In this document: piece after piece, positions 3,501 to 61,666 of the stretch
Numbering within the stretch: position 1 is the stretch's first letter
Layout of the letters: every line of letters starts with the position of its first letter
Assembly (NCBI RefSeq): GCF_033153115.1
Contig: NW_026889786.1
Location: 3,658,001-3,722,000, forward strand
DNA: 64,000 nucleotides
From: Saccostrea echinata
Lineage: Eukaryota
Reading direction: 5' to 3'
Notes under the pieces: generated by a model
Told to the model about the DNA's origin: nothing
Seen by the model: the letters and a program-made list of their open reading frames with translations, nothing else
The model's database searches: none
Made by a program: the position numbers and the translations under genes

Positions 3501-6500
3501 TCACATAAAGTAATTGAAGAATGTTTTGTGCATGTTTAATCTTTAAAATTTAGTAGAGCCAATTTTAAGTCTTTGAAAACAAATTAAAGTCCACAAATGT
3601 TAGTAAAGAATTATTTTACTTGTACATTTAAATAAAATCAAGTTAATTAACTTTCAAACTTTATACAAACGTTACTTCCAGTTTGATATGGATTTTTGCA
3701 TGCCGGTCCAATATGTGATATGGATTTTTGGACCGGTCCTTATATGGGGTATTGTGCCGCACAGTGCAGAATCAGTGTATTTACTACTAAATATATGATA
3801 AAAATCTGCATCAGCCCTGCAGATCCATATTAGCCCTGCAGGAAAAACTGATACATCTTTTGTGATGTCAGGCATATGGCATATGCAGAAAAACTTTATT
3901 TCTTAAAAAAAGTATTACATTGCATTCATGGCATATATATGCTTTGACATGTATACACGTAATAGTAGAATATTTGTTCTCTGATTTTCGAATTCAAGGA
4001 TTGTCAGTATAGATGGATTTTATCAAGAATCTTAACATTTGTCCCTGTGAACACCAGTTACACTGCCAAACCTAAAGGCATATCATCACTCAGAATATCC
4101 TAACACTATCATCTATTAAAGTTGCTGCTGAAATATATCTAATGTAACACCTTATATCTGGCTGCTAACAACCTGCCTATACTGAGCCTGCCCTCTGATT
4201 AATGTTCAGCATCATTCTCCTTCCCCTCTAACAAGAATTCATTCTGCTTTAATTCTATAAATCAACTTTCCTTTGTGTGTGACTAATCCTCTGGGGCTTT
4301 GTACGACTAGGAAATAGCTATATTTTTTATTGCCGAGAATTTGTATATATTTCATATATTTTTACAGCAAACAAACATAACCAAAGAGAGAGAGAAAAAC
4401 AAAGACGCAAAGGAATTTTATAATGAAACTAAGTCAGTGTACAGTAATCCAATGTTTGATCTGTTGACTGTTCACATAACAGTTCTATTAGCTCCTCTTT
4501 TACAGAGTTATCTTCTCCTAACTGCATTTTTATCCCCCCTTTCCATAATATGTTCATGCAATAAGATACAACGTTATATTGTTAAAATGATATTGTCCTA
4601 TAGACCCGTTTAAACATAGAATTATTTCCATGTTTTGGCAATGTAGCAAAATAAACAGAGACAGATAATTCTATTATAAGTTTACACTCAGAAAAATCCA
4701 GAGAGTTCTGAATGTCAACATGTCAATGACATGTCAATTTGAAGCCAGGAAAAACATTAAGAAATCTTTATGTGGATTATATTTTAGAGTAAAAGGTTTG
4801 TTTTAATGATTTACATGTTTATTTTCAGTGCAACTCCTATTTGTCTTCTCCAAAATTGAGTTGGAGCGGATCTGCTGTTTTGCTACATCGCAGTACATGG
4901 GATGTATTCTAACTGTGGTGAGGGTTTGTCCCAAGATGCAGTTAGCTTTTTCTAACTAATGTTCCATACTCATACCTTCAGCAGTTTCATCAGTCCCTCC
5001 AGCTGTACCATGAGCTCTTTCCGGCTGTCCTGTAAGGCGGACATTCTTGACTCAAGCTCATCTTTTCGCTGCCTGAGCTGTCGTAATTCTGCCAGCAATG
5101 TCGGGTTATATTGGGCACTTTCTGTACTCCGTGCATGAGCCTCTTGCTCTGATCGAAGCCTGTGGATTTCTCTCATAATCTCCCTGATCAAAATAAAAAA
5201 TACAATAAAGTTTAATTTGAGTGTGGAATCTTATGTCTGTTTATACATTAAAATTTTATTTTCCTAAAAAAAAAAAAAAACATACTTACACGGTGGCTAA
5301 TAAAGCAGACATATATTTATACTCAAATGTTAAAAGAACCATCTCTAATGAGCCTATGACTTTGTCTTATGTCTTCCAGAAGAAAGCATCGCCTTTAAAT
5401 TGAACAAACTTGTAACCATCATCATAAAATGACATGCCATGTCAAGTTTTATTGAAGATGGCAAAGTGCAGACAGTTCTTGAGAAGTCCAAAATGTGGAA
5501 ATTACCAGACAGATGTCAGACAGACATACCAGGGGCATCTGAAAAGTTCTAAATACTGTTTGATTAAAGTGTTTAACGGAAATCAACATTTATGATATCA
5601 TTTAAAACATCAGGAAAATATACATTTACTTTGACTTCACAATAGTACATAGTGTACTTCTGTTACATAATGACTCCTAAAATGATGTCATAATTCTGTA
5701 ATTTGTAATTCTGCAGTGTAAAAAGAAGTAAGGCATGTATGAAAAACATGTAAATAACTCATTTTTTTTTTTCACAAAAGGATCTTGTAGATATTTTCAC
5801 AATTGTTTTGGAGTTTTAAAGAGGAATGTGTAGGGGAGATAATGAGAGTCAGTGATCTCCCTTTCTCATTTGTATGCCATGTAATTTGGACTGTCTAGAA
5901 TTCATCATGAACATTAATTTTTTTCTGAAATGAAAAATCGGTTCAAGACCAAAGATTTATTTGACATTCTCCAAATAAAAATACAAGTTCAGAAGGTAGT
6001 AAGTGCCATCGCCTTTTGTCTAAGCCAATCATAAATTGTCGCTAGTCTGCAATAAAGCACATCTCTACTCATCTTTATTCTGCCTGCCTTTATTTGCTTC
6101 ATGACTGTCCATTTCTCTCCCTAATAAACACTCAGTAACAATTCTAATTTCTTTTACGTTAATTCTGCCAGAACTAGTAGTGATCAGTTTGAAATAATTG
6201 AAAGATATCACTATAATTTTGCTTTATACTTTCAATTTATCAAATATATAGTTTTTTAAAAATAGTTTAAATTGATAATTTTACTGTATTTCATCATCAC
6301 ATACATAATTATATATTCATTTGGTTTTCAGAAAATTCTGAAATTAAACTGATAATTATTAAAGTTTGATTCTGCAAAATTTTATTTCTTAAATGAGAAT
6401 CCATTCTTCACATGAAATTTGAAAGTATGTGGAAGACTTCTCACAAACAGATTAACAGACAGACAATGTGATCTCTATTTGTCTGCTTTGTTTTGAGGGA

Positions 6501-9500
6501 GATTTCTCCCAGACAGACAGACAATGGACAATGTGATCTCCATTTGTCTGCCTTGTTTTGTGGGAGATTTCTCCCAGACAGACAGACAATGGACAATGTG
6601 ATCTCTATTTGTCTGCCTTGTTTTGTGGGAGATTTCTCCCAGACAGACAGACAATGGACAATGCGATCTGTATTTGTCTGCTATGTTTCACAGGCCTCAC
6701 ATACAGGAATATTCTTGCTCTTGATTTAAGTTGACAGCGAAAACAACTGAGAATGCTAGAATTTGTTCTCCTGGCTTAACAGTAGTTTATATTTACAGAA
6801 TCCTTTGGGGTATAAACCCGATGACAAATTGACTTATTAGTGGGCTGTTAATGTAATTGATAGCGGTCAAACTTCTGCTGATGTTGTTAGTTTCCGGTAA
6901 GGTGTCCTGTGACTGGGAAATCTCTGGGGAGGGTATCCCCCTCTGTCAATAATCTCCTGGTTTGTGACAGTTACAGATAGCTTGTCAAATAAAATCAGAT
7001 GTTTTATGACAATAATTGCTGTTTAAATTCATATCAGAATCTGCAACAGAGTAGTTCAAAATCTGCTACAAAGCAGTCATCCAACCAGTGATTATATCTA
7101 AAGATCTCTGACAAGACTGTAGCCCTACTGTAGTGGTTATAACTAAAGGTCTCTGACAAGACTGTAGCCCTACTGGTAGTGGTTAAAACTAAAGGTCTTT
7201 GACAAGATTGTAGCCCTACCAATAGCGGTTATAATTAAAGGTCTCTGACAAGATTGTACCCTACTGGTAGCGGTTATAACTAAAGGTCTCCGTCAAGATT
7301 GTAGCCTTACTGGTAGTGGTTATGACTAAAGATCTCTGACAAGACTGTAGCCCTACTGGAAGCAGTTATAAGTCTCTGACAAGATTGTAGTCCTACTGGT
7401 AGGGGTTATAACATAAGGTCTCTGACAAAATTATAGCCTTACTGGTAGTGGTTAAAACTAAAGATCTCTGACAAGATTGTAGCCCTACTGGTTTAGATTT
7501 AAAGTGGTCTGAAGAAAGAATGTGAAAATACTCATCAAGTGCCCCTCTTCATGTGACAACTTTTTCTTTACTTAAAGCAGACAGAGAGAAACAGTATTAT
7601 ACTAAAATAATTTCAGGCGTAGCATTTGAGTATTGAGCTCATTCTCATAAATCTTATCTGACATGTATTTTTTTTTTATATTATTTACTGCTACTTTGAT
7701 TTCATTGCATCAACTATGATCATATAATATTTCTTTAAATTTTGATAAACACAAGGGGTCAGTTTTACTTATTATAGCTATACACACTTTTTCATTATCA
7801 TTAATGATCTTTATGTTTTTAAATATAAACATGCTAGAAAATTAATATAATTTTTCAAAAAATATCAGTTGTAATCCTATAGCATTAAATAATATTAAAT
7901 ATGTGACCAATGTCCTATAATGGAAATAAGTACATTTTATATAATCATTCTGTGCTCTTTGGGAATGGGCTATCTTCATTACCAATCAGTTGGGTTTACA
8001 CAAAGGTCTAATGTGACTGCAGAAGTATCTGCTTGTTTGATCTGGTCAACAGTTCACATACAATATCATGTAGTTGGTGTTTCTACATGACATTTGATCA
8101 ACAATAGCCATAATTCTCAAGATCTCCCTACTGATTCTTCTAAATCAGCAAACAGAAATACCTGTTTTTGGCCTCCAGTTGGGATATTAGCTCCCTCTGT
8201 GCTTTGTTGGAGTCTAAACTGAAGTTCAACTCGGTTGGACTTCTTGCCTATAAGAGATAAAAATGTCTTTGCAGTGATTGTCAAATATACAAAAAAAAAA
8301 AACAAAAAAGAAAAAAAAAAAAAAAAAAAAACATACTTACATATTAAAAGAACTCATTACTAGTTTAACAAAGAAGCAAGTTTTCACTTTTAATTAATCT
8401 CATTTTCATTTTTCTGTTTGATAGTTTGACATTTACCAGAGAAACAATGACCGGATTTATAATCTTAATTTAAGGATTTTTCATGAATATTATATTTTAA
8501 ATCTTTGTCCAATATATGTATGAAAAGTAAAGGCATCAATTATCATTTTATTATTTAGGTAACTCAAACAAATTATTCTGTAATACATGCAATCATGTCA
8601 AAAACAATCTGAATTATTAAAGAGGTTTTACTAATATATATTGATTAAATATGATCATTTTACAGAACTAAAATAATGATGTATTGATTATATATTTGGA
8701 ATTATTTTAATATTAATTACATAACCTGCATTATGATTCAGTTCAGTATTGAGAGAACTCATCTAAGTTTTCCACATCTGAACTAGTTGAGGCTTAAATT
8801 ACCCTAGCAAAATTTACCATAAGAGGAATATAAAATTCTTGACAAAACCTACCCAAGTGTAGTTTGTAACAAACCTTGGCAAAATATCCCACAAGCTTGC
8901 AAGAAACGTGTAATTCAATGAATACTTACCACAATCCAACGAACAGATTACCACAAATATCATAATCCAAAGAACTTAGTACAAATGCACTGTGAACAAT
9001 AGTCCAAGGAAAAATTTACCATAAGTGTTCAACAGTCCAAAGAAAAGATTAGCACATGTACTGCAATCAAGCGAAAAACTTACCGCATGTAAAATAATAC
9101 AAGGAAAATTTTGTACCACAGTGCACTGCACATGTACAATATAATCAAGTGTAAAAAAAAAAAAAATTAAAAAGGAGTTCAGTGTAAAAAAAACTGACCA
9201 CAAGTGCATTGCATATAAAATACAGTTGAACTTCGATATCTCGAACACGGATATCTCAAATACCATGGATATGTCGAAGTCATTTTGAAGTCCCATCTGC
9301 TTATTCCTTAAGTATTTTACCCTGGATATCTCAAATCCTCAGTTATCTCGAAGTATTTTCTTGGTCCCTTTGAGTTTGAGATAACAAGGTTTGACTGTAA
9401 TTCAATCCAGGAAAGGACACATTTCAAATGCAGTATACAAAAATGTGACCAAAAAAAATATACCACTGGTGTAACATAATCCAAAAACCCCAGGAAAAGT

Positions 9501-12500
9501 TTATAATAATCCTAGTAAAAACTTACCAAAAGAAACGTGTTAAATAATCCTAGTAAAAACTTACCACAAGTATAGTGTTTAATAAACCCAGTAAAAACTT
9601 ACCACAAGTATATATAGTGTTTAATAAACCCAGTAAAAACTTACCACAAGTATATATAGTGTTTAATAATCCCAGTAAAAACTTACCACAAGTATAGTGT
9701 TTAATAATCCTAGTAAAAACTTACCACAAGTATAGTGTTTAATAATCCCAGTAAAAACTTACCACAAGAACAGTGTTTAATAATCCTAGTAAAAACTTAC
9801 CACAAGAACAGTGTTTAATAATCCCAGTAAAAACTTACCACAAGAACAGTGTTTAATAATCCCAGTAAAAACTTACCACAAGAACAGTGTTTAATAATCC
9901 TAGTAAAAACTTACCACAAGAACAGTGTTTAATAATCCTAGTAAAAACTTACCACAAGAACAGTGTTTAATAATCCCAGTAAAAACTTACCACAAGAACA
10001 GTGTTTAATAAACCTAGTAAAAACTTACCACAAGTATATATAGTGTTTAATAATCCCAGTAAAAACTTACCACAAGAACAGTGTTTAATAATCCTAGTAA
10101 AAACTTACCACAAGTATAGTGTTTAATAATCCCAGTAAAAACTTACCACAAGAACAGTGTTTAATAATCCCAGTAAAAACTTACCACAAGAACAGTGTTT
10201 AATAATCCTAGTAAAAACTTACCACAAGAACAGTGTTTAATAATCCCAGTAAAAACTTACCACAAGAACAGTGTTTAATAAACCTAGTAAAAACTTACCA
10301 CAAGTATAGTGTTTAATAATCCCAGTAAAAACTTACCACAAGAACAGTGTTTAATAATCCTAGTAAAAACTTACCACAAGAACAGGATTTCGATTCCGTT
10401 TCACACTTTGTTGAGATTTGCTCCTTCGAATTTTTTGAAAAAAAGTTTTCATGATTGCAGATTTATTTACCAGGTAATATTTCTCCAATGATATTTTTTC
10501 AAGTTTGAGAAAAATGTCCACATAAAATGTCAGCACTCAAAAGATCAATTCATCATAAACTGTCAATAAATAAAAGAGGGTGACGTGACCAGTGCTATCT
10601 AAACACTGCATTATTGATGGATAATTATATCCATTTGACATATTGTGCATTTGATGAAAACATCAATATGGATAGATTTTTATAAACTAGCAATTGTATC
10701 CTTTATGCTTTTTATCACTTCAATCCGAGGAATCTGGTGTCCGTTCCTCACAATATGAGAGTCTATTATATAATAGATCCACACTGTCTCCCCACTTCTG
10801 TCAAAGAGAGGTGCCATATGTACCGCAATAATCCATATATATAAACCGTGGAACATGTCCCTGCACAGTTCCTAGGACTGCTATAACCTGATTCAGCATT
10901 ATTAGCTCTCCATACCCTCTCTATCTCATCTCGTCAAACACTATTGGCTATATGGGATTTTTTTTCTGGTCTTGTCTCTAAATGACATGAATAATTGCTC
11001 GAATTATGTCAACAGAGGAAAAAAATGGAAAACAATTCAAAAACTGCCTCTGACATTTTCTGCTGTCAAAGCTTAGGGGTACTTTAAGTTGCCTGTACTA
11101 TAATATACAAAGTTGGACCGAAGTGTCAACATGTGTGAAACATTGAATCTGAGTGTGAATCTGGAAGTGTTGATGATACAGGAAATTCCTGACAAAGGCT
11201 GAACAAACATGAAACAAAGGCAGGCAATACTTCAGAGGGACTCATTGCTGCACTTTGCCCATCTCTTTGTTTTACTTCATCAAAAATGAAGCTCCCTTTT
11301 TTTTCCTCTCTCTATTTTTCATGATACATGCCTATATAAATATGCCAATCAATTTTCTGGGAACAAAACTAAAGAACCTATTCATTAACTATTGATGAAC
11401 TGTACGGAGAATAATAAATACACAACGAAAACAGTTGAAAATCTATACGGATCAGTATATCTGTGAATGTTTCGTGATGCTAATGTCGTTATCTTGTTGT
11501 GTAAAAAGAGCCGACCCAGTTGAGCCATTAAAAGCACCTTGATTTAACTGTTAATTTGGTTATTAACATTTGATAAGCTGGTGTTTTTTGGTGGATAAGG
11601 AAGTCATTTTTATCCAAATTATTTTCATCTTGTTCCATTTTCAGCAATCAGACAAACATATTTCATACAATGACACAAACTACTATTTGGAAACAGGCAC
11701 CTTGGAATATCAACTCTAAAATAATGGTGATTATTTTATTATGGAATATGGTTGGGAAAATAAAATATAAATATATAAAATAAAAATTATTTTCAAAAAC
11801 AACAACAAAAAAGTATGTAAGAAAACTGTCCAATTAATAAAACAATATTTTTCAATTGAATCTTGAAATTTACTTCTCTGATTCAATCAAAAACCTCTTA
11901 AAAATGTGCCCCATGGTCCACAAAAAATATGCTCACTCAATTTACTTTAGTTCTGCTTTCTTCAGAAGATTTTTTAAATTCCCATGAAAAAATGTGCATG
12001 CCCCCATATTTTTGGCCCCACCTAATTCTAAAGGGTCTCTGAATCCGCACACCTTGGGGATGCTTCAATATTAATACATGTACATGTATGACTAACATGG
12101 CTTTGCAGTCATGGAGAATAAAACTCTACCCTGCATACATGCATTACATAAAATTTGATCCTAATGTAGCCAACTCTTAACCGGGGGTCCATAATTCAAG
12201 AAAAAAATAATGAATTCACACAGCTTGTGAATATTTGCAAATTAATGGTTCTATTGTGTTCTTTTATAAGATCTTAAAAAAAAAATTTCTTATATGATTC
12301 CATGCAAAACTTTGATTCCCTACAGTGGCCCCATCCTACCCCTCGGGCAATGAATTGAACAGTTAAAAATCTACACTGCCTCAGGAAACTATCATACACG
12401 TTTCATCTCTTCTTGTCCATTGGTTTTTGAGAAGATTTTTAAAGATTTTTCCTACTTATTTTAATGTAAAACTTTGATACCCTATTGTGGCCCCATCCCC

Positions 12501-15500
12501 TGGGGTTCATGATTTGAACAATTTAGAATTTACACTATATCAGGAAGGTTTCACATATGTTTCATCTTTTTTGGTACAATGGCTCTTGAAAAGAACATTT
12601 TGCTTCTACATTTCAATGTAAAAAATTCATCCCCTATTGTGGTCCCATCTTATCCACAGGGTGCATGATTTGAACACTTCCACATAAGTTTCACCTTTTC
12701 TGACCCAGTGCTACTTGGGAAGATTTTTGAATGACCCCACATTTTTTTTTTTTTTTTGCTTTTTCTTGATTATCTCCCCTTGGAATGAAGTTTATTTAGA
12801 ATCCCCTTTAACAAAGGATGCTTTGTGCAAACTTTGGTTACAATTTGCCCAGTAGAAGAGTCCAAATTATGAAAAGTTTACAGACAGACGTATTGATGTC
12901 AGACAACAGGTGATCTCATGAGCTTTAAGCTCAGGTGACCTAAAAGGTCAACATAACAGAATCGCTACAGCAGAAAAGTAAGTAGACAAATTTTACTATG
13001 CAGGTGCTCCCCCTTCTTTAAATAATCTGAAGTTCAAGAAATAATGTATTGCACACAATTCTTTGATTTTTCCATAAATCTAAATAGAAATGCTTATTTC
13101 CACCCTTTTGACTGCTGTTCTAAGTTGTATTATTATTTGATTTAATGAAAAAACTGGGATGAAATCCTCATTTTGTTGTGGTTCATTGGCTTCATCATCA
13201 TTAATTGTCTGCAAGCTAAACTTGGATCATCCATTATTTCTAACTAGATGGTTTTATTACCAATGATTTATTTCTTCTCAGCAGTTTGGGTTGACATTAA
13301 AACATAGGCATGATAATGTTAAAACACATCAATTAATAAAATATATATGATTATCATTTTCAGACAATATATCCTAGGTTTATTAAATCAACATAAATTC
13401 CTCTTACCTGTAAGTGCAGAGATAGTAAACAGTCAGACAACTGTATATTTATGTATGTGCTTCACTATTTTTTAATTTTTTTTTTGCTAGAGCTTTTATC
13501 AAGGAAGTAACGCTTTTTGAGACTATAGAATAGACACTGTGATATCTGTATACAATACTGTAGATTCCTAAATATATGCGAGGAATTAATTATTGCATAA
13601 TTTTGCGAGAAGCACCACACACGAAATAAAATTATTTGCTTTTATTTTTATGGTGCTAAAATCCATGTAAAATCTGTTGATCAACCATTCACTCGCGAAT
13701 TAATGTTCTCGCAATTTGACGTCCAAGAGCCATTTCGCGATAATAAGTAATCGCGCAAAATAAGGAATCTACAGTTTACTGTACTAAGTTAATATTGAAA
13801 ACTTAGACATACTCTTGGTTATGCTCTTAAGTACATTCCATAAGGACACTTTCCACAATAACCCAGATTGAAATTCTTTCTTTACAAAATATTTGATATG
13901 TACTCATTATTGATGGACAGTGATGATTAAAGAAGATTCTATAAAAATTCAATATCTTAACCCATAACATGATAGACGGACAAAAAAGTTCCCCTATAGT
14001 GATAATTGATCTTTTACATGTCCAAAGCATTAAATAATCTGAACATTGCCAACAGCAAACAAAGCAGCCATAAGCTGTATTGACAGCACAAAAAATATGT
14101 TCACTCGACAATGTGAAAAATCTGCTGTTTTTGACACTTAAGGACAAGTCTAGTGAGGGTTCATACTGTCACATGTTCTTAGACCACTATTGATGATATT
14201 CACACATTGATGTTCCTGTATATATTATTATATACACCAGTTTTGAAATTCTACAATTGATCCAATCTCTGCTTTTCTATATTTTAACCATCATTCTCAA
14301 TAGTTCATTTTCTTAACCTCTGATATTTAGGTAAATAGCTGATACCTTTTTTTTTATCATGATTAATTGCCGGGTATTGATTTGTGCTAGATCGATTGAC
14401 ATGAATTTACACAGGATATATCTTTAAATGAAACTTTGTGTGTGTGGGCACAGCTAACATTGCTTTTAAACTCTTGGTTTAATTCATTGTTGGAAAATAC
14501 CAACATTCAAATTTATCACACTTTTTGCTGCCAGGAATCACAATAATTTGACTGTCACTGTTGGCATCAAATTACCTCCTATTATGTAGACATTCAAAGC
14601 TTACTGTAATGCATCAAATTATATTTCAAGATTTTTGCTGTTGAACTCAATAAAAGTCACTTGTATAGTTATGGTAAAAAAATTTACTGTGTGGCTGTAA
14701 CATAAAACATAGGAATGGCTGGCAAAAGAAAATGACACAAATGGTCTTGCAATGCTGTCACATAAAAATGAAGAAAACTGACAACAAAATTAGTGCCTTT
14801 TTAACATTTGGTTAACAAAATTTTCAAACCATACTGAGAACCCCTCCAAAGACAATTCTTTAGATAGCAAGAGGCCTCCACTCTTCAAAGCTCACCTGAG
14901 TGTTCAATAATCCTACAGGAAAATGAATGTGAAACACTTCTGACCTCCTAAATGTATCTAAATTTGCTTGCAAATAAATTTGAAAATTTTAATCTTAATT
15001 ATGTTCCCATAAGGAAGATCTTTAAAGAATTTTACTGATATTTTATTAAACACTGAATGTTTTTTCACCATTGCTCTGGCTTTAGGAGACCAAAATATAA
15101 ACAAATTTGAATCTTTACAAGGTAATAATTTAAAAGTTGTTTTTTTTTCTTTTTTAAATGGTCAGCTTATGAAAACATTTTTTCTTATCATAAATTAAAA
15201 CACACTTATAGTGAAGTATCAGGGACAAAAAATATAAAGAAACTTAATTTAAGTTATATCCAGTAAGTTTATAATGTTATGTAAAATAAAATTATGGGGA
15301 ATAAATATCACTTAGCTGTTACCATAAATTCATTATAACCATGTGTGCTGTGGACTAATATTTCTAGTGAAAAAAATTAACGTACCTTAGTATAAAAAGA
15401 ACAGTCTTGATGTTAAGTGTTTGACAAGTCATCTTAATTAATATCTTTTTCTTTTTAAGAAGTTTTGTCTTTGTACAGGAAAGCTCAGGTGAGCTAAAAA

Positions 15501-18500
15501 TGAAACTTGAAAAGAGCAGAAAATTCAAATCATTGCTTTTCCTGTCAAAACCCCCTAGATGTCATGCAAATTTTGCCTAAAATGACACTGAAATTGTTTC
15601 TACACATGAATATCCTGAACTCTGGAGTGGCAAGGGTCTCTAGAGAAAAAGATGACTGATTCATCACACAATATGCTGGCTAATGACAATTAAACTAAAG
15701 CCTGCACAGTACCTTGCTCAAAATAGGCTGCATAAAAAAAATTTAAAGCATTCAGTATATTGTTTGAAGATTTACTTCACTTTCAATCTTTATTTTAAAT
15801 CTGCCCATTTTTTCAAAACTTTCATTAATTCTTTATAATGATGCAATGAATACTTCATCATTGCTTATTAAAAGTCATGTCAATTCTAATTTCACTTTTA
15901 ACTTCTTGCATCCCTTTTTTGGGACAAATATGTGGCTATCTATAATGCTTTTGGTGTGGGTTTGGTATGTAAAGTATTCTGTAGGGATGGCAGACTAATA
16001 CATCGTCAAACTGGCGGGACTAGGGTCGAACACAATAATTATCTAGACAAAATTCAGTTAAACACAATATAATACTATTCATTAATAACAAATTCATTAA
16101 TCAATAATCCAATCTATGTAAGGGAGTGGGACAAAATTACACACATGGACGGCAAGCTTAATTTGGACTCAACCGATTAAAAAATGAGATAATGGCTCAT
16201 TTTTACCAAATAATCATCCTTCACGATCTACAAATATCAATCTGTTACTCAGTAAAGTGCATTTTAGAGTACCATTGGAATTTCATAACCTTTGAAAACA
16301 AGGAATTGACCATTAAAATGCTTACTATGTTGGAAGAAAGTTTATGTCCAAATGTTTCATGGTGGGTGATTTAAAATTTCAAAGTTCAATATCTTAATTA
16401 TAGCAGAAATTGTGACCATTGACTGCAATTTTTAAAACAGCTTTTGATGTATTACAATCTTCTTTACCTGAACATCAACATCTAGATTAATCTGCCCACA
16501 TGGCATTTAATCACTGTGTATGCAGAATAATTTTATAGTGGAATGCTTCATCAAGGTACAATTGTAAATCAAAATATTATATAGTGTGAACAAGATGTGT
16601 TTGTGAAACACTGATGCCCCTGTATGGCAACTTATAGGGAAGGTTAAACCTTCTCAAATGCAAATCAAATATGTTGGTACCAAAAGTAAGGTCTTGTCTT
16701 GAAAAATATACCTGTGAAAAATGAAAGCCCTAGCAGCAACCATTGAAAAGATATGAAAAAGGTTAAAGTTTTTCAAAAGTGAGGCAAACATCAAAGTCAT
16801 GGTCAAATGGTCAAAATTAATGGTGCCCAAGAAAAGGCCTTCTCACAAGAAATACACATGTGAAATATGAAAGCCCTAGCACAAACCATTCAAAAGTTAT
16901 GGCCAAGGTTAAAGTTTTTCAATTGTAGGTCAACCTCCAAGGTCAAAAGGTCAAAGTTCTTGGTCTCCAAAGTTAGGTCTTGTCACAAGGATTACATATG
17001 TGAAGTATGAAAGCACTAGCACCATCTGTTCAAAAGAAATGGCCAAGGTTAATGTTGGTTAAAATTTTGCAAAACTGGGTCAAACTCCAAGGTCAAGGTC
17101 AAAAGGTCAATTATGATGGTACTCAAAGAAAGGTCTTGTTACAAGGAATACACACGTGAAATATGAAAACCATAGCTCCAACCAATCAAAAGTTATGGGC
17201 AAGGTTAAAGTTTTTGCGGACAAACAGACAGACAGACGGACGGACAGGGCAAGAACTATATGCTCCCGAATCTTCGATTACGGGGGCATAAAAAACCCCA
17301 GAGTGGCTAACCTATTGCTTTAAAACTTAGGTTTCATGAAACTTGTCAAATCTTTTCTTCATAACATACTGTAAACAAAATAAATGCCAAGTACTAAATC
17401 ACGTAAAGTTGGTCAACCTCCAAGTCAAGGACAAAAGGTCAACATTGTTGGTACCTAAGGAAAGGTCTTTTCACAAGGAATACACATGTGAAATATTAAA
17501 GCCCTGGTACAACCTGTTCAAATTTTAAGGCCAGGCTTAAAGTTTTTCAAAAGCAGGCCAAACTCCAAGGTCACTGAGTCAAAATTTTTGGTATGCAAAG
17601 GAGAGGTCTTGTCACAAGAAATATTCATGTGTAATATGAAAGCCCTACCTTCAACCATTCAAAACTTATGGCCAAAGTTAAAGTTTTTCTTTATAAGTGG
17701 GTAAAACTCCAATGTCAAAATTGTTAGTACCAAAGGAAAGATCTTAAGGAATATATGTGAAGTACAAAAGCCCTAGCACCAAACATTCAAAAGTTATTGC
17801 CAAGGTTAAATTTTGCAAATGTTGGTCAACTCCAAGGTCAAGAGGTCAAATAAGCTGGTACCCAAAGAAAGGTCTTATCACAAGAAATATACATGTGAAG
17901 TATGAAAGCCAGAGCTCCAACCAATCAAAAATTATGGCAACGTTAAATTTTTTGTGGACAAACAGACAAACATACAGACAAATAAATGGACAGAGCAAAA
18001 ACTATGCAGCATTTGCCCCTGAATCTTCAATTATAGGGACATAAAAATACCATGAAAAGTTTTATGTTGATTAAGATAATTGTATAAAAGATGTAGATAT
18101 GGTAATGTCACTGTAATTTAAAAGACAAAACAATTCATTAAAAGACACCTTGCTTTCTTTTCTAAATGTATATGATTTCTTAACATGACTTCATTAGATT
18201 ATTGCAGCATCTTACACATACATGCAAATACTTTACAGGAGCCTTGAAAATACTAGACTTCAGGTGAAAATACTGCACATTGTTCTTCAAAAAACTACAA
18301 AATTTCAATTAATTGTTTTATTACATTAACCAAGCACAGTAAGTCACACGTCAAACAATTTCTGGTGTTGTGAGAGGAATAATTAAAGGAAATTAGTGGT
18401 TTCTGGTAAACAATTCAAAAATACAGGACAATTTTTCATTTCGCATGAATTTTTGGTGTCCCGCCATATAATCCTGTGAATGGGGTAATAAATGTGATAC

Positions 18501-21500
18501 AGTTGAACTTCGGTATCTCGAAGACAGATATCTTGAATACCATGGATATGTCAAAGTGATTTGGAAGTCCCAAGCACTTAATATTTTAATTAAGTATTTT
18601 ACCCCAATATCTCGAACCCTCGGATATCTCAAAGTTTATTCTTGGTCCCATTGAGTTCAAGATAACGAGGTTTGACTGTATTTTGTGTACATGTAGCCTG
18701 AGTAATTTCACATGTAGGCTTACAATTCTTGAGCCAAATCAATGCTTATCATGGACATTGGAGACATATAAAACCATGGTTTTAAATGTCTCTGTGCACA
18801 TTAAATTAATATTTTTTGAAAGACGTAGTCTAATAGCAGCAACAGTGCATGCAATCAAATTTTTATAATGTGCAAACACGTGCAACTCAATTTGGTTAAA
18901 AAACCATTGCAGTTATGAGATTCTTTCAAAAAAATAATTCAATGCTAAAATAATGTCAATATACATTATCATAATTTCTTCAGCAGTTATATCCTTATAT
19001 CACTATATTTCTGTTTACATAGTGTGCACTTATCCTTTCTTTAATAATTTTTTTTTCATATATAAATTACATTAAAAGAAAACTATGAAAAAAAGATTAA
19101 TATAAAACTTTATGGCAGATACTTGCTCAATAAACACAAAAGAGGCATTTACTCAAGATAGAATTCTTTTAAAATTTTCTATCATTCTAGACTGTATACA
19201 AGCATCTGCCTCCTGAAATAAATTCCTTGCTGAAGACTTAATTCTGAATTTCATTGGCATATTGGTGAAACTATTTCTGCGACAGCTCTGCACAAATCTG
19301 TTTCCATGACAATTAATGTGGAAGACAAGTAATATTTTCAGGAATAGAGAATATATCCATTCATGAATACCAATGACAGCTCAGAATAGACGGTATCCTA
19401 CAGAAATTGGTTCAGATGTGATTATGGGCTTTATAATCAAAATTAATATTATATGTCCACTTGTGATCAACTCCATATGAAACATAATGTGTCCCCTGAC
19501 ATTATTGTGCTTAAGAAGAATTTTGACTGTGTCCATGTCTTAACTTTGTCAATTCAAATTAAAGCTGACCTAACTCTTCATTAGAGTGGAATACATGACT
19601 GTTACTGTTCAAAGTAACAATATAATTCAATGTATATTATTTTAAAGAAAAAGCCTCATTTCCATTTACAAACTTTAAATTTTTTTCATTTCAAAGAGAT
19701 GACTACGACCATGCTTATGTCAGCTAATCTGAGGTCATGGCCCCCATATTGAATTTCTTGGATAAAGAAAAAAAAATGCAGTGCTTTCTTTCTTTCTCAT
19801 TTACTCATTTAACAAAAGAAATTAAGACATAATATTATCTAGAGAACAAATCTTCACTTCATAGCTCCTGTACAATATAAAATTTTCCACAAGCAAGACC
19901 ATGACATTGCCTCAGCCTGCTGTGGGTCAAAGGACCCAAAAGTAGGTTGTCGCCATTTATGGTTTTTTCCTGTCATAAAAATTGGTTTCATCTGATTTGC
20001 TGGAATTTGTCATCTTGGATTTAATATCAAACATAAGAAGAATCCCGAGATATCTAATGATTACTTAGACAACCACAGACATATGACTTCTAATGAAGAT
20101 GGTGTACTAAACACAAGAGGAAATTAAAGCTGAGTACTGAGACAGACGTTTGATATAAAATCTACTGTAACACAACATTCAACATCTAAGATGAGATTAG
20201 AGTACTTAAAAATGATGTATTGTGACAAAAGTTTAAGTACTTCTACAAGACTATGAAGGCAGAAATCAAATGTCTAGAAATAATTCAAAATATCTAATAT
20301 TCACTTCTAGACTTATTTAAAGTTGGAATGTCATCAAGTTTCACATATTTTTAGAACTAATATTGGATTCACAAAAGGCATAACCAATAATTTTGAGCTA
20401 CAGAAAGTAAAACATATGAAAACAGAAGTTTAATCTTATTAAACCTCATACTTTTTAAATTATTTTATAGGATTTTTTTTTTTTATTTACAAATTTTAGA
20501 GACTAATTTTTCTTTATTATTCATTCCAAGTTGTTAAATCTAATAAAGGAAATCAAATAAAACCTATAGCTTTTCACAGTACAATGAGAATATCTGATGC
20601 ACATGGTGCCTTTGTTGCAATGACATCTTTGAGCTAAAAAATATTGTGTGCTAATTTTATAAAATTTGGTTTAGTAAATTTTTTTCTGGGTAATATACTT
20701 CACATATCCTGTACATGTTTTCTAATGTTTCATATAGCACATATAAGAATTTAGTATTAGATTGTAAACCTGTGGTATGTTTTTAAAATCTAATGCATTA
20801 ATCAGTGTTGTAATATCACCAAATTCTGTACATTTCAAATAATTATGTGTTATGTCTACTTTTGCAATACATGATTTACTACCGTATAGCGGGAATTTTT
20901 AGCAGGGTGCTAACTTTGACTTAAATTTATTTAAGCAGTTCTGAAGCAGCCTGCTATAATTAAAACTAAATTTGCACCCTTACATATAGATATGGAATAC
21001 AACAAAAATAACTTGGATCAGTCTCTTGTTACATGTAAGCAATATTTACACCCACTAAAGAAACCCACTATAAGGTATTTAAAAGATTTTATATATACTT
21101 TCAAAACATAATAAACAAGAGGCCCATGGGCCATTCTGCTCACCTGAGTCACTATGACCGTACTGTTCTTCATCAGATTTTCCCCCTTATATATTCCTAT
21201 GTAAAACTTTTATCCCCTATTGTGGCCCCACCCTACCCTGGGGAGTAATAATCTGAATAAACTTCAATCTACACAACCTGAGGATCCTCACATAACAATA
21301 TAAATAATCATGCCTTCTTAAAGAAGAAGATTTTTAAAGATTTTTTCCCCTATATATTCCTATGTGAACCGTTGATCGTCCATTGTGGTCCCAACCACCC
21401 TGGGGATCATGATTTGACAAAATTTGAAAAAAAACTTAAACATACGCTATGTAAGGAAGCTCTCATATAAGTTTCAACTCTTCTGGCCCGGTGGTTCTTG

Positions 21501-24500
21501 ACAAGAAATTTTTTTCCTATACATTCCTATTTAAAACTTTGATAATCTATTATTTAATGCCTTTGGCTCAGGTGAGCTAATTAAACTATGATTGGTATCT
21601 TTACTTTTTGAATTCTTTTATCTTTTGATAACTTTGACACTAACTTTTGGCTGCATAATTGACACTATGTTTATGGCAAACTGACCATAATTATTGTCCA
21701 CTGAACGACCAACAAAATTTAAATGAGGATTTTTGGATTTAGTTCTACACTGCTTCTATTAAATTACTACTATCTTAAGAGGAACAGTTAATTTTGGTTA
21801 TAAATATACTATTCACTAATGACACATCAATAAGACTAAGTACTTTGGATTCCTCAAAGTCTGACTACAACAGTCTATTTGATACCCCTCACACCATTTT
21901 CTACCGAGTCTCAATGAAGCATCTACGCAGCTCACCTTACAGCACAATATGAAAATCTACAAGGAAAATTTCACTCCAACTTTTGCTTGATACAGGCATA
22001 CTATTACAAAGTTTTCAAACATAATTCTTTAATATGCTAAAATTTTGATTTAAAACAAAATAGCACTTATTTCTAATATTATACTTTCATGTAAATTACT
22101 TGAATTTGATTCATCCATAAAATTTTTATCTGAATGATGAAACCACACCCTCCAGCGTGGTAGAACTTAGCAACAATCAACATTGCTTGACAACAGCTGA
22201 TATTCCCCAAAAATTATGACTGTGCGGAATCTATGCCTGCTCTCTTTACCTTTATTTGTATACAATGTTCAGTATAATATAATAAATACTGCATGTAGTT
22301 GAGGGCATCATTTGAAAATTCCACCCCTTGAAAACCATTGTCAACCTCGACTGCACCTCTATTGTCAATGGTATTCTTCGAGTGAAAATATTTACTGATA
22401 TTCCTTTAAAAATTGCTTCAATAGAGACCTATACTTAACCAGAAGGCTTTGATGAAACTGAAGCTCTACTTTTGTGTACTTGGTGTAATTTAGTATAGTG
22501 TACTTGTGTACCAAGTCTTATTGAAATTGGACCAAAACTGTAGAAGGAGTAGCATTTTGAACAAGATGTGTTTGTGAAACACTGATGCCCCTGTATGGCA
22601 GCTTATACGGTTTAAGGTTTTTATCACGTCTCAAAATTTTTTGATATAACAAAGTTTACATGCTATTAAAATCATATATTTAAAAATCTTTGCTAGAAAA
22701 TTAATATTTCTGATGTTTCAGCGATTCAAAGTTTGAATTTCTCAATATGCATATTTTGATCACCAATGTTACGTGCCATTGCTCTGACGTCATAGGTGTC
22801 AATCCTGGTCAAGCGAAGTACTTATCATGTATACAAAAAGGTTCATTTGTAGTGTCTATTAAACCTGTTAGAAAATAATTAAGAGATAATTGGATAACTG
22901 ACAGCTAGTAAGGTATAATTTAAAGCTTTAGGATGCACAAATGTGCACAGGAAAGATTTTAGGAAGAAATTTTTTTCCACATTTTCTGGACTTGATCGAG
23001 AGATGAAAGGGGGACCTTTTTCTGCAAATGCAATGAAGTTTATCTCCATTCAGAACAATCGTTTATGCCCGATAGATCACAAATTTTTTCTGTCCTATTT
23101 TTAGGAAAGATACAATTTAAAAAAATAATAAATGACAAACAGACATTTTTTAAAAGTTGCACAGAATCTAGTAGGAATGTTGTGAACTTCGTAATGGCGT
23201 ACGGCACCATTGAGGAAGTGTCATTTCCAGTACATGATATTCAGTGCTGGAACAGATAGAAGATATACAGGATTTATCGATATATAATTCATTAAAATAA
23301 TAATGAAGGAGAATTTAAAATTCCCATATTTATAAATGTTTACGAGGTTAAACTTTAGTAATTCGTTCTATTAAGTCGAAGTCCCGAGTTGTCAATGGCT
23401 TCATCTTCGGTGACCTCTCCAATTGTCGGCATATTTTCTGCTTATTTCTCTCTGCTAATCGTTCATACATAGAAGATTGACCGCCCATAACCAAAGGAAT
23501 ATAGCCGATGTCAAAATTTCAATCGGCCATATTGTGTATCCTATTTATTTAGCATAAAAATCTATTCAATATATTTTTTCTTACGATAAGCTTTACGAGT
23601 TCTATTGACCATTGACACCTATGAAGTTTCAGTACTACGTGACCCCTATCTAATTAGTGGAGATTTTTACTTCGAGGGCCCTATGTGAAGTGTGAAAGCC
23701 CTAGCACCAACCATTCAAAAGTTATGACCAAGGTTAAAGTTTTTCGAAAGTAGCTCAAACTCCTTGTCAAGGTCAAAGAGTCAAAGTGGTTGGTATCCAA
23801 AGGAAGGTCTTGTCACAAGGATTACATATGTGAAGTATGAAAGCCCTAGCACCAACCATTCAAAAGTTATGGCCAAAGTTAAAGTTTTTCAAAAGTATGT
23901 CAAACTCCTATGTCAAGGTCAAAGGGTCAAAATGGTTGTGTCCAAAAAAAGGTCTTCTCACAAGGATTACATACGTGAAGTATGAAAGCCCTAGCTCCAA
24001 CCATTCAAAAGTTATGGCCAAGGTTAAAGTTTTTCAAAAGTATGTCAAACTCCTAGGTCAAGGTCAAAGGGTCAAATAGGTTGATATCCAGGGGAAGGTC
24101 TTGTCACAAGGAATACACATGTGAAGTTTGAAACCCCAAGCACCAACTGTTCAAAAGTTATGGCCAAGGTTAAAGTTTTACAAAAGAAGGTCAAACTCCA
24201 AGGTCAAGGTCAAAAGTTCAAAGTTGTTGGTATCCAAAGGAAGGCCTTGTCACAAAGAATACACATGTGAAGTTTGAAACCCCAAACACCAACTGTTCAG
24301 AAGTTATGGCCAAGTTTAAAGTCTCATAAAATTTTGCAAAAGTGGATCAAACTCCAATGTCAAGGTCAAAAGGTCAAATATGATGGTACCCAAAGAAAGG
24401 TCTTGTCACAAGGAATACACATGTGAAATATGAAAGTCATAGCTCCAACCAATCAAAAGTTATGGACAAGGTTAAAGTTGACAACAGACAGACAGACAAA

Positions 24501-27500
24501 CAGACAGACAGGACAAAAACAATATACCCCTGGGATCTTTCGATCCTGGGGCATAAAAAGTGTTTATGGACAGCTAGACAGACAGATAGATGGATGAAAG
24601 ACACCTTAATATGACAAACTCTTTTGGTCTCTGACCAGTAAAAGCTAAAAAAAAGTCTGCAAGTCCAATGCATTACTGAGTGGTCAAAAAAAAAATTGAT
24701 GTTGGACTTCAGAGTGAGATATTGGACCTATTGATGAGATATTGGACCCCTATGACGTCTTTTTATGTCATCACACTGTAGGCAGGATCAGCTATCAAAT
24801 ATTGCAATAATGGAAGCCAAGATGTGTAAAAATAAAAAGTAAAAGGTATAACAAAACATTTATTGACTGTGTTCTCGGCCAACATGCGTTTTGTTGACCT
24901 CTCAAACCTAATGGCCTCAGGAAAACAGTTTGATTTTTCGGTCTGACAAAACGCATGCCCTTGAAGCCAGTCAAAAAATGTATAACATTACCCTCAATTA
25001 CATGCAGTATTTATATACTGATTACCTGCAGTAGTGATTGTCTGTGAGTGTATAGTTCTTACATCTATAGATTTGTCTATATATACTAGGAGTTACTTAT
25101 TTTGATCAGTACTTACATTAATAGATTTATCTAAATTTATCTAAAGCAGCTACCTTTTTGTGTTCAGTTCTTACAACCATAAAGTTACCTTTAGCAATGG
25201 TCCTTTGCGTTTGTACTGTACATATATTTGTACATTTATAAGCACTTTCTGTGTTTAAAAAATAAAATACCACCTCAGTAGATATATCTGTAGAAATACT
25301 TTACCCGTGGAAATAATTGTGTGGGGGAAATTTTTTGTGAATTTTGTGATTAGTAAAGTTTCACAAAATTTATTACCTGGCCAGAGATTTCACATAAGGT
25401 AACATACTAAACAACAAACCAACATATTTTCTGTAAATTCTTTAACTTCCGCAAAAATAATCCCTATGCAAACACTTTGTTCCACAGAAATTGTAGAATT
25501 TTAGCCCGTAAAAACATCCACGTTGACAGTGGTACTTTGTATGTTATAAAATACTTACATCTGTATATTTATCTGTAGCAGTGGTTACTTTCCATTTATA
25601 AAGTACTTACATGTACACTTATATTCCTGTGTTTTGTACTTCTAACACAAATGTAGATTTTTTTGTTATTTTACTAGACAGAGCCTTTATTTGACACATA
25701 TCCAGAGCTAGAAAGCCTCAATTTTGACTCACTGTATTTTCTGCATCTGCTGCCAGGCGAGCTGCATACCGGGCAATCAGACGATGTTCATCGTCCACAG
25801 GAACACACTCTACGCTAGCTGTCATCTTCCTGGGGCTAAAATCAGGAAGTTGTTCATCTTAATATAAGTATAAACTTGGAGGGTGTATATCTTTGTCTTA
25901 GCCTTCTTTTAGACTTGAATTAACTGGTATAGATCTCTATTTATAAATTAATGCTGAACAATTTATAGTAACTATTTAAAAAAAAAATTAATATTATAAC
26001 TACAGTAATTTCTCTTTTGTTAATGGGGCCCCTGAATGGAAAATTACTAGATCCACCCTAGAATATAACCTTGATCTCCTTTGTAATATTAATTATTTTA
26101 AGTTCAATTCTACCTTTTCTGAGGTTCCCCTCCATTCAGCTGTAATGAGTTGACTGCTTGATGCAACAGAGTGTCATGGAAACCATTTCTAGGTTGCTGT
26201 TGTTGTGGAGTTGGAGGTCTAGAAAAATAAGACAGCCAGATAATTTTGTATTATCAAACAGCACAAGATGTGTTTGTGCAACACTGAGGCCCAAGTGGCA
26301 GCTCATGCCCAAGGTTAAAGTTTTTCAAAAGAATGTCAAACTCCAAGGTCAAGGTCACGAGTTAAAAAATGTTGGGACCCAAAGAGAAGTCTTGTCACAA
26401 GGAATACATATGTGAAGTATGAAAGCCATAGCACCAACCATTCAAAAATTAAGACCAAGGTTAAAGTTTTTAAATGTAGGTCAAATTTCAAGACCAAGGT
26501 CACATTATATATTGGACCCCCCCCCCCCTTTCCCCAAGTCTTGTCACAAGGACTGCACAATCCATGTGAAAAATGAAAGCCCTTGCACCAACTGTTCAGA
26601 ATTTATGGCCAAAGTTTAAGTGTTTCATAGCTAAGTCAAATTTTAAGCACAAGGTCATGAGGTCAAAAATGTTGGTAATCAAAGAAAGGTCTTGTCACAA
26701 GAAATACGCATATTAAATATGAAAGCTCTAGCACCAACCATTCAAAAGTTATTAACTGGGGTAAGTTTCAGCAGACAGAAAAACAGACAGACCAAACTAT
26801 ACACCCCTGTATCTCCAATAGGGGCATAAAAAGATATAAAACATTTCCTCTCAAAAACTTAATCTTATTGATAAAAACAGTCCACATAAAATGAGCTTAA
26901 GTGAATTATCATGACCATGCAAGTTCTTCCTGAAGAGAACTGGACATTGAGGTACATTTACCAAAACAATATGTATAAGCATATAGTCATGTTACACAAC
27001 TGTTGATACAGACATAGATTAATTATAATATGAAATGTTAATATATTATACAGTTGAACTTCGCCATCTCGAACACTAATATCTTGAAAACCATAGATAT
27101 GTCGAAGTGATTTGGAAGTCCCAACCACTTATTCGAATATGTTTTTTAACCCTCGGTATCTCAAATAATTGGATATCTCGAAGTTTTTTCTTGGTCCCAT
27201 AAAGTTTGAGATAACGAGGTTTGACTGTATATGTACATGTGCATTCACATTAACTTTGCTACATTTGAAGATATGAGACTCCAGAATTAAACATTCCCTA
27301 TTCATCCCAATCACTGCTTCTACTCCTAAATATGTGCTCCATGAAGCTACATGTGTTTCAATGAATTATAAGAAACACTATGTATCTAAAAGTAACTATA
27401 TACACTTATATTTTTTAAAGTCAAAATAACTAAAATCTTTAAAATTTGTTTCAATAAAGCAATTACTGTAAAATCCAATATTTTCGTGAGTCAAATTTTT

Positions 27501-56536: not shown

Positions 56537-56635
56537 CTTTTTCTTGCAATTCCTGGTTTATATTCTGAATAACAGAAGCAAACTTTGCTTGATTATATGC
56601 CAGTAGCTCCATGCTTGGTGTCAAATTTTCATTTA
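56537..56635 (-). CDS. Candidate alternative 5' or cassette exon of dystrobrevin (…MELLAYNQAKFASVIQNINQELQEKG)
   Basis: Strong phase-1 donor AAG|gtgagg; in-frame ATG at 56612; also a possible acceptor ttttcctcag giving a symmetric 99-nt exon. Confidence 0.45.
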
Positions 56636-59080: not shown

Positions 59081-59495
59081 CTGATTGGAGACTCTCTCCC
59101 ACAGAAATCTTCTGTCTTCTCCTTTCCGGTATTTGTTCAGTATTACTGTTTTCTCTGACCTTTGCTTGTGTCCATCCTTCATTGCAGTCTCCGGCAGTTT
59201 GCTGGTCATTTTCTCCAAGAGACGTATTAGGACATGTCTCCTTCCATGTACATATCTCATGGATGGGAACATCCTCTAATGGCTGTTCCTGGCTAGCCAC
59301 ACAGCACAGGCAGCAACACTTGGGCTTCTTACGTTTGTTCTCTTTACTTAATCTCTGATACCTAGATTTCTTAACACTAGGTACAACATAATTCTGGGGC
59401 TGGGGCATGTATTTATTCGATACACTATCTTCTTTATCCTGTAATGTCTCATTTTCCTCCGATTTTAACAATTCCTCCGAGACTTCTTCATCCAT
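59081..59495 (-). CDS. Candidate first coding exon of dystrobrevin: 138-aa acidic N-terminal extension with KRKKPKCCCLCC
   Basis: Longest non-repeat ORF in the window (59034-59495); phase-1 donor CAG|gtgaac joins exon 47049 in frame (QS-G-YVHG). Confidence 0.6.
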
Positions 59496-61641
59496 TTCAC
59501 ATCACTATAACAATAGTTTGTGTATATATCCCGCAATATCATCCTTCTGACATTTAGGCATTATTTGTTTATCTATTTTTTGTCATTGCGATCCTTTTCA
59601 ATTTCTCTTCCAGGGCTTTCAACTTGCTCATCATAGCAATGCTTTACCTTGAACAATTTGTCTTAGGTATCTCGATCTTCATCTTAGATATTCAACCATT
59701 TTCACACATTTCTGTGATTGCAAGAGTTTTATTCAGCTCTTCATAACATTCAGTAGATTCCAGTACTTGATTCTTAATAGCAGTTGTGCATCAATTATTA
59801 AGAAGCCAAATAATTATCTTGCCGTTTTCTAAATGTAAATATCTTTTAATTGATTGGTAAAAGCAAGCAGCAGTGGAGAGACTTTAGTAATAATAGTTAA
59901 TCCATCTTACACATGCTCCATTGAACAGATACTTCCTCCGTTAATTCTCCTATGATCCACTGTAAACATGAGTCCAAGGACTCCGAGCTCCAGAAAAAAT
60001 GTCACTCAATTCACCACAATATCACATATGACATGACCAGGTAAGAGAAGTGAAGCTATATAGTATCAATGCTATGTATCAGACTTCCTCTCCTGCAATA
60101 TGCATTACCAAACTGATTGCTACAACTTACATAATACGCATTAGCTCGTGTGTCACCCCTGTTTTAATGGACAATGAAACCAAATATCTGTACTTTTCTG
60201 ATATATATACTTCTGCTCTGCATATTTAACCCAAACCATCTTGTTTTTATCTGATCTGGTACCTACACACCATGTTAATAGGATAAAGCTACGATCAGAT
60301 GATCAGATCTGCCCACTACACATCCCCCTTAATGAGCCTCTACACATTTCATCACAAATTGTTCATTATCCAACACTCTACAATATTACAATACTGCTTT
60401 GAAGCAAACGAACGATAATTCTCTTGAGATTCATCAAGGCATATCTTTTCTCCAGATCTAAATGTAGGCCAACATTGATGATTAACTTCACTGAGCATGT
60501 TTTCAATGTGATAACTTAATACTCTGAGCATTCCCGACATGAATATGTTTTCCCCCATAAAAATGCGCTAATTTTCTGAATTACCATGATTCCTTCCATT
60601 CATGAATAAATTAGAACAAAAAAAAAAAATTTTTTAAAGTATATATATTTTGATCACATTTTATATCCCATCCTTTTGCCATTATCATTTGCCTTCAAAT
60701 CATTTTACCTTCCCCATACTCCCACTACCCTCCCCCACTTTAAATCTCTTATCTCTCAGATCAGGCTTGATAATTTTTCATTTTCTTTTAACAGTAAGCA
60801 TGAAAGTCTATAGCATACACATAAAATAGTGACAATGTTGAGTTTGATTGGAGATGCATCAGGGTAAGATGGAACTGAATGAAATAATTCACAAACCAGT
60901 CCTTACTAAAAGTAATGCATTGCAACAGGTTGGAACCATCGCCCAATAGACTGTGTTGGGATAACTGTGGTGCTGTATTGCAGAACAAATTGATATAGTT
61001 TGGTGAAATAAGACATAACATCAGTTGTTTCATAAATGTCATTTAATTATCTGGTAGCAAATCTTTGCCAGACTTTATTAATTTGCCCTGCAAAAGAGCA
61101 GTACCGCAGTTATTGCGAAAGGGTAAATAGAGATCATAGCTCATTTAAGATAAATGATATGCTCCCAAATGAGACAAAAATTACTGTGCAAAAAAGATAC
61201 AAAAATTTGTTGATTTTTTTTAAATCTGCATAAGTATTCACTGAATGCAGTAAATTTTAGCATGCATTTTTTTAAATAACCCTACAGTTTGTGAGATTGA
61301 TCCTCAAGAAGGTTTGGATTTCCTGTGGGATGGAATTGTCATAACCAGTTGGAATAGAGAGATTCTTTCATCAAAAGTTGTTGCTTTTATGTGTTTTTAT
61401 GCAATTTTACAAAATTTTCCATTTTTTGCACATTAAATTTATATCTCATTTGGAATACTGTCTCAATCAGGCTATTTTATCTCATTTTGGGTAATTGGCC
61501 CCAACCTGTCAAATCTTTTTTGACTACTTTCGTTTTACTTAAAATGCACCACATGTTTAAAACTTCACAACAAATACACTGCATCTCGTAGAAAATAATG
61601 ACTGGATATAAATATTTCTTCAGTAACAAAAGTAAATGTAC

Positions 61642-61666
61642 CCCTGAAAAACGTAGGAGATGCCAT
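61642..61666 (-). CDS. Candidate short first coding exon of dystrobrevin (MASPTFFRG)
   Basis: AGGATGG start context, phase-1 donor G|gtacat (weak), next to the putative promoter region. Confidence 0.25.

What the first reader, a model, noticed from the sequence alone, without database searches (positions are those of the whole stretch)
59081..59495. Candidate 138-aa N-terminal extension with polybasic plus cysteine-cluster (palmitoylation-like) motif
Seen: a non-repetitive, acidic, disorder-like ORF containing SKENKRKKPKCCCLCCVAS, with a phase-1 donor that fuses in frame to the exon at 47049. Established: vertebrate dystrobrevins start only ~20 aa before EMRAQ, and Cys strings next to basic residues are typical S-palmitoylation membrane anchors (e.g. 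RGS RZ family, PI4KII CCPCC). Inference: a second, independent lipid anchor chosen by promoter use. With the CaaX exon this would give a combinatorial N- and C-terminal lipidation system in one gene.
Basis: partly seen in the sequence, partly recalled or inferred. Interest (0 to 1): 0.7.

Follow-up and report, generated by a model that had tools for sequence, protein, structure and literature searches.

The report
Oyster dystrobrevin's optional lipid-anchor first exon
This oyster's dystrobrevin gene (a dystrophin partner) holds an extra start exon whose positively charged, cysteine-rich motif is kept in other oysters, mussels and a scallop and likely receives fatty acids, which would let that form of the protein attach to membranes by itself.

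Summary
59495-59081 (minus strand) is a 138-codon ORF with a phase-1 GT donor, in frame with the dystrobrevin exon at 47049. It is one of five intact coding first exons here. Orthologous exons are already in RefSeq gene models of three other oyster species; 6 of 6 long isoforms join the shared exon directly. A basic stretch plus C-L-C-C core also opens long isoforms of four Mytilus species and Argopecten irradians. The core is conserved; the linker behind it is not. No read crosses the junction in this species. S-palmitoylation is the best reading but is inferred, not shown. The 'combinatorial N- plus C-terminal lipidation' idea is unsupported: 0 of 308 full-length dystrobrevins end in a canonical CaaX, and in-window candidates look like chance. 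Palmitoylated versus plain N-termini chosen by isoform is a known principle (PSD-95, SAP97, GRIP). My literature searches did not find it for dystrobrevin.

The parts
59081..59495 (-). Coding part of the long alternative first exon (138 codons plus 1 nt; phase-1 donor)
   Evidence: orthologous RefSeq isoforms
59496..59566 (-). Upstream sequence contiguous with the ORF in one contig of a probably-RNA run; likely 5' UTR
   Evidence: X1 contig 59314-59566, no differences; in-frame stop at 59504-59502
59349..59360 (-). YxxL motif (Y46-L49); kept in oysters and mussels, Tyr replaced in the scallop
   Evidence: sorting-signal label recalled
59319..59336 (-). Polybasic stretch K54-K59 (net +9 over the 20 residues before the first Cys)
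59301..59318 (-). Cys cluster C60-C65; C61, C62, L63, C64, C65 invariant in 12 of 12 aligned oyster sequences
46945..47049 (-). Shared second exon that the first exons join
61642..61666 (-). Short first exon of the annotated Saccostrea isoform
56537..56612 (-). Ancient alternative first exon (amphipathic-helix-like; has an N-terminal Cys in many other taxa, not in oysters)
52108..52144 (-). Short alternative first exon, matching Crassostrea/Magallana isoforms
47617..47695 (-). Aromatic-rich alternative first exon, matching Ostrea/Crassostrea isoforms
263..44451 (-). Dystrobrevin body exons in the window (EF-hand_2, EF-hand_3, ZZ, coiled coils); the gene ends about 4 kb beyond the window start

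Best explanation
The ORF is an extra coding exon of the oyster dystrobrevin gene, likely used as a first exon spliced straight to the shared exon at 47049, adding a predicted disordered arm whose basic-plus-cysteine motif is likely S-palmitoylated and would anchor this isoform to a membrane. Steps: (1) shown: ORF, donor phase and frame; (2) shown in gene models of relatives, inferred here: the splice; (3) inferred: its own promoter between 59566 and 61642; (4) inferred: the basic stretch brings the arm to acidic lipids, a DHHC enzyme acylates the vicinal cysteines, and the variable linker tethers the EF-hand/ZZ core; (5) speculative: the YxxL motif and nearby serines tune sorting or release.
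For: 6 of 6 long oyster isoforms (C. virginica X1-X4, C. angulata X3, C. gigas X4) carry the orthologous arm joined directly to the shared exon. The distance from CLCC to exon 2 is 73 aa here, 70 and 75 there. Residues 42-70: 16 of 29 identical in all 4 oyster sequences; residues 78-138: 4 of 61. No cluster Cys varies in 16 Magallana-type and 7 C. virginica-type variants, while the arm's three other Cys are not invariant. CLCC preceded by net +5 to +10 in 8 of 8 sequences tested from oysters, mussels and scallop. Cys number and spacing vary around the core (4-6 Cys), which fits acylation clusters better than a fixed metal site (inference). AlphaFold gives no fold for the arm. Palmitoylated Cys tend to have basic or hydrophobic neighbours (PMC3010063, passages). 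Two contigs of probably-RNA runs cover the 5' half of the exon.
Against: No acylation, localisation or proteomic data for any mollusc isoform. No contig crosses the 59081 donor; the covering runs are one sample and only guessed to be RNA. None of the 4 Saccostrea or 6 Ostrea edulis records listed has this arm. RefSeq isoforms are predictions. Oyster-mussel similarity is modest: z about 5 for the window ORF but 1.2-1.8 for the two Magallana-type arms, and Cys-Cys scores inflate it. Within-species variation is not clearly lower in the core (4 of 27 columns) than behind it (18 of 73). Palmitoylation has no strict consensus (PMC3010063). Low pLDDT may reflect a shallow alignment.
Confidence: 0.62

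Rival explanations
1. The exon is real, but the motif is a protein-binding or targeting segment (basic nuclear-import-like run, or YxxL adaptor/SH2 site) and the cysteines are not acylated.
For: YxxL is kept in oysters and mussels; this species' basic run resembles an import signal (recalled pattern).
Against: The dense basic run is broken by glycines in Crassostrea/Magallana and the Tyr is absent in the scallop, while CLCC is kept throughout.
Confidence: 0.14
2. The Cys cluster binds Zn/Cu/Cd or acts as a redox switch.
For: 4-6 Cys within 5-11 residues; oysters accumulate metals (recalled).
Against: Vicinal Cys with hydrophobic neighbours, variable spacing, no second Cys/His pair conserved; no Pfam family above cut-off and no PDB relative.
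Confidence: 0.1
3. The exon is a relic or rarely used in Saccostrea, though active in other oysters.
For: Not in 4 of 4 Saccostrea records; no junction contig.
Against: Intact 138-codon frame, donor at the orthologous distance, conserved core, contig cover.
Confidence: 0.08
4. One reading: the gene combines an optional N-terminal palmitoyl anchor with an optional C-terminal CaaX prenyl anchor.
For: In-phase CaaX-like endings exist: read-through of the donor at 8162 ends in CLLI; a weak acceptor at 34762 ends in CSVL.
Against: 16 of 456 acceptor-like sites give any Cys at -4 (3.5%, about background Cys frequency by my estimate); 0 of 308 full-length proteins end in a canonical CaaX.
Confidence: 0.05

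Closest known systems
Dystrobrevin (DTNA/DTNB family; bivalve RefSeq 'dystrobrevin beta-like' long isoforms, e.g. XP_078317892.1, XP_052688209.1, XP_063415860.1, XP_069127060.1)
   Same: EF-hand_2, EF-hand_3, ZZ and coiled coils; alternative promoter use is known for alpha-dystrobrevin (PMC2796648, passages); the orthologous arm is already in gene models.
   Different: Fetched vertebrate proteins mostly start about 20 aa before EMR and none shows a Cys cluster there. Dystrobrevins are described as lacking a long N-terminal extension (PMC1790709, passages; 'palmitoyl' 0 occurrences). Human DTNB appears in one palmitoyl-proteome list (PMC11740626, passages; site not in the one supplement held).
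Isoform-specific palmitoylated N-termini: PSD-95 alpha/beta, SAP97 alpha/beta, GRIP1a/b, PDE10A2
   Same: A scaffold whose alternative N-terminus adds or omits palmitoylatable Cys and so changes location (PMC6502786 passages; PMC3010063 passages).
   Different: Those Cys lie near the very N-terminus; here a 4-6 Cys cluster sits 60-85 residues in, behind a basic stretch. No sequence homology was tested or is claimed.
RZ-family RGS cysteine string (RGS17/19/20); PI4KII-alpha CCPCC
   Same: N-terminal Cys string that is a palmitoylation site (PMC9513948, passage; the PI4KII motif is recalled).
   Different: Analogy only; unrelated proteins, and no alignment was run.

Membership tests
Dystrobrevin | EF-hand_2 + EF-hand_3 + ZZ domains | tested here: met
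   Pfam on P0002, whose first 627 aa are rebuilt exactly by window exons
Dystrobrevin | C-terminal coiled coils; no WW, spectrin or CH domains | tested here: met
   No such Pfam hits; long helices in the model of orthologue P0062
Alternative first coding exon | Own ATG with upstream in-frame stop and an in-phase donor to the shared exon | tested here: met
Alternative first coding exon | Junction seen in transcripts of this species | tested here: inconclusive
   Contigs cover 59303-59566 only; none reaches the donor. Seen in gene models of three other oysters
Alternative first coding exon | Own transcription start site | not testable with these tools
   Only contigs available; they cannot show starts
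S-palmitoylated Cys cluster | Conserved Cys with basic/hydrophobic neighbours in an accessible segment | tested here: met
S-palmitoylated Cys cluster | Hydroxylamine-sensitive thioester and Cys-dependent membrane binding | not testable with these tools
   Needs acyl-RAC/click labelling and mutants
CaaX-prenylated isoform | An expressed or conserved isoform ending C-a-a-X | tested here: not met
   0 of 308 full-length proteins (two have Cys at -4, neither canonical); window candidates unsupported
Metal-binding Cys motif | Fixed ligand spacing or a known family match | tested here: inconclusive
   CLCC fixed, flanking Cys variable; no Pfam hit above cut-off; no PDB match below E 0.3

The most novel reading that the evidence does not exclude
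Bivalve dystrobrevin picks its membrane from a menu of first exons: this palmitoyl+polybasic+YxxL arm docks it on membranes without dystrophin or dystroglycan, and similar basic, Cys-ended first exons in a brachiopod and a nemertean mark an old lophotrochozoan, lipid-anchored dystrobrevin scaffold that vertebrates lack.
Probability: 0.22. Interest if true: 0.65.

Novelty: new variant of a known kind. Interest (0 to 1): 0.42.

Why it matters
Dystrobrevin is described as a cytosolic protein that reaches the membrane complex through dystrophin and partners (PMC10293626, passages). An isoform with its own reversible lipid anchor would uncouple it from that complex and give a simple natural construct to test what membrane-tethered dystrobrevin can do alone. 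It also adds an exon missing from the Saccostrea records seen. The principle itself is familiar, so the surprise is moderate.

Tried and rejected
No RNA holder on record was listed; three runs guessed to be RNA, one sample. The wide read lay was swamped by repeats. The narrow lay showed no cover over the donor, which is not evidence of absence. The word-based search with the ORF found 0 of 88 candidates, although orthologues exist as cluster members; phmmer found 2 representatives. The Atlas look-up gave no result. Pfam DUF5583 is below cut-off; PDB hits have E of 0.3 or more. The model of the ORF alone has pTM 0.10 and was not used for a fold search. dN/dS could not be computed: no DNA of relatives. 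One search's tblastn part failed on a wrong option and was rerun. Internal-exon use after the 61642 donor through the AG at 59505 meets a stop (read). The match at 47857 to a Magallana N-terminus has a stop before its donor and was dropped as a coding exon. Lingula, Lineus and Capitella N-termini have basic runs and Cys but no significant similarity to the window ORF (42-299 of 500 shuffles reach the score). No such arm in the listed isoforms of three other scallops, clams, gastropods, chiton, cephalopods, deuterostomes or arthropods; lists are capped at 15 per cluster and only the best 120 of 6846 hits were fetched, so absence is not shown. Literature searches (listings only unless cited): dystrobrevin+palmitoylation 23 papers, +oyster 5, +lipid anchor+isoform 1, +S-acylation 1, alternative promoter/invertebrate 4; none by title or abstract start describes this isoform. 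Subscription papers are not covered.

Full report
Observation. The minus strand has an ATG at 59495, 415 nt of open frame to 59081 and a GT donor in phase 1. Joined to the exon at 47049 it stays in frame. The basic+Cys motif is as described, with Cys at 60, 61, 62, 64 and 65. A stop lies two codons upstream of the ATG. The ORF is single-copy in G000. Of 20 ATG ORFs of 100 aa or more in 114 kb around it, only this one has such a motif, and 30 Markov resamples gave none (rule set after the fact).

The gene. Window exons rebuild exactly the first 627 aa of P0002, a Saccostrea echinata RefSeq dystrobrevin, with EF-hand_2, EF-hand_3 and ZZ domains. That record starts from a short exon at 61666. Using N-termini of oyster isoforms as probes, five intact coding first exons lie upstream of exon 47049: at 61666, 59495, 56612, 52144 and 47695, each with a phase-1 donor. 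A sixth match at 47857 has a stop before its donor.

Is the exon used? In C. virginica (4 isoforms), C. angulata (1) and C. gigas (1), RefSeq models begin with the orthologous arm, and 6 of 6 join the shared exon directly. The C. gigas record differs in its first 20 residues. The path through 56635 is in frame but used by 0 of 6. The 4 Saccostrea and 6 Ostrea edulis records listed lack the arm. In this species two contigs from runs guessed to be RNA cover 59314-59566 and 59303-59470, with 0 and 1 differences; none reaches the donor. Two of these runs hold a spliced contig of the neighbouring gene, so they contain mRNA, but all three are one sample.

What is conserved. Across four oyster sequences, residues 1-14 (9 of 14 identical), 42-70 (16 of 29) and, less so, 15-41 (8 of 27) are kept; residues 78-138 are not (4 of 61). 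C61-C62-L63-C64-C65 is invariant in 12 of 12 aligned sequences; the three Cys outside the cluster are not. In population variants no cluster Cys changes (16 and 7 sequences; only 15 of 231 members of the larger cluster were listed), but the core is not clearly less variable than the linker. Eight long isoforms from four Mytilus species and Argopecten irradians X1 open with an acidic start, a basic run and a cluster containing CLCC. Net charge of the 20 residues before the cluster is +5 to +10 in 8 of 8 tested; the spacer to exon 2 is 5 aa in mussels, 12 in the scallop and 70-75 in oysters. Mussel-scallop similarity is clear (z 13.8). Window-mussel is modest (z about 5, 0 of 500 shuffles), window-scallop 4 of 500, Magallana-mussel not significant. 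Common origin across the three groups is therefore likely, not proven. Lingula, Lineus and Capitella isoforms have basic, Cys-bearing N-termini at the same junction without significant similarity.

Structure. AlphaFold leaves residues 6-160 of the C. angulata long isoform almost wholly below pLDDT 50 with no helix, while the core folds well. The ORF alone gives pTM 0.10. The arm's alignment is shallow, so this fits disorder without proving it. No Pfam family above cut-off and no PDB relative.

Mechanism. Most likely the arm is an S-acylation anchor: electrostatic approach through the basic run, acylation of vicinal Cys, and a flexible tether to the core. This follows from general features of palmitoylated sites (PMC3010063, passages) and from analogues: RZ-family Cys strings (PMC9513948, passage) and isoform-specific palmitoylated N-termini of PSD-95, SAP97 and GRIP (PMC6502786, passages). 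It is inference; nothing here measures acylation. A YxxL motif, kept in oysters and mussels, could add sorting control (label recalled). Rivals are a non-lipid targeting motif (0.14), metal or redox use (0.10) and a relic exon (0.08).

The CaaX idea. An in-phase scan of the introns after exon 47049 found 16 of 456 acceptor-like sites, and 2 donor read-throughs, with Cys at -4; the CaaX-like ones are CLLI (read-through at 8162), CSVL (weak acceptor at 34762), CTAM and CAFA. The CSVL stretch gave one match in G000. Among 308 proteins over 450 aa, 2 have Cys at -4 and 0 a canonical CaaX (CaaX rule recalled). The combinatorial model has no support here.

Known or new. The arm is in public gene models of other bivalves. 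Searches (listings) showed no paper on it. A superfamily survey has no mention of palmitoylation (PMC1790709, passages). Human DTNB is listed in one palmitoyl proteome (PMC11740626, passages); its site tables were not in the one supplement held and could bear on whether vertebrate dystrobrevin is acylated elsewhere. Earlier scan notes: none near, none by sequence or words; one unrelated note. Verdict: a real, conserved exon; a new variant of a known kind; interest 0.42.

Noticed in passing
window 62183-62307 and 63869-64000, plus strand; L007:112-285: A gene lies head-to-head with dystrobrevin: spliced 62307^63869 (GT..AG) in contigs of X1 and X3, ATG at 63911, beginning with an SH2 domain. 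It may share a promoter region with the 61666 exon; a Syk/Shark-type kinase is my recalled guess.
   Followed up: partly
window 56537-56612, minus strand: This first exon is ancient: similar N-termini occur in cephalopods, gastropods, chiton, nemertean, brachiopod, hemichordates and amphioxus. 15 of 22 distinct versions have a Cys within the first 8 residues (one from an upstream extension); oysters lack it. A possible second palmitoylation/amphipathic anchor that oysters lost.
   Followed up: partly
window 47617-47695, minus strand: Aromatic-rich first exon with two Cys (mean hydrophobicity 0.77 over its best 18-mer), conserved in Ostrea and Crassostrea; another candidate membrane-binding N-terminus.
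   Followed up: no
window about 47810-47860, minus strand: Matches a Magallana first-exon peptide but has a stop just before the donor and no in-frame ATG; perhaps a non-coding or decayed first exon.
   Followed up: partly
window 8162, minus strand: Read-through of this donor ends the protein in CLLI, a CaaX-like end, cutting it within the coiled-coil region; no transcript evidence.
   Followed up: partly
window 28756-28791, minus strand: 36-nt cassette exon, present in some oyster and mussel isoforms and absent in others.
   Followed up: no
window intron 25733-8247: Crassostrea/Magallana have a short basic cassette exon at this junction; no convincing match was found here.
   Followed up: partly
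window 48748-50075: Very high contig depth with many joints: a high-copy transcribed repeat.
   Followed up: no
L003 about 3000-6400, plus strand: ORFs that look like reverse transcriptase and integrase pieces of an LTR retrotransposon downstream of the gene (label from recalled motifs).
   Followed up: no
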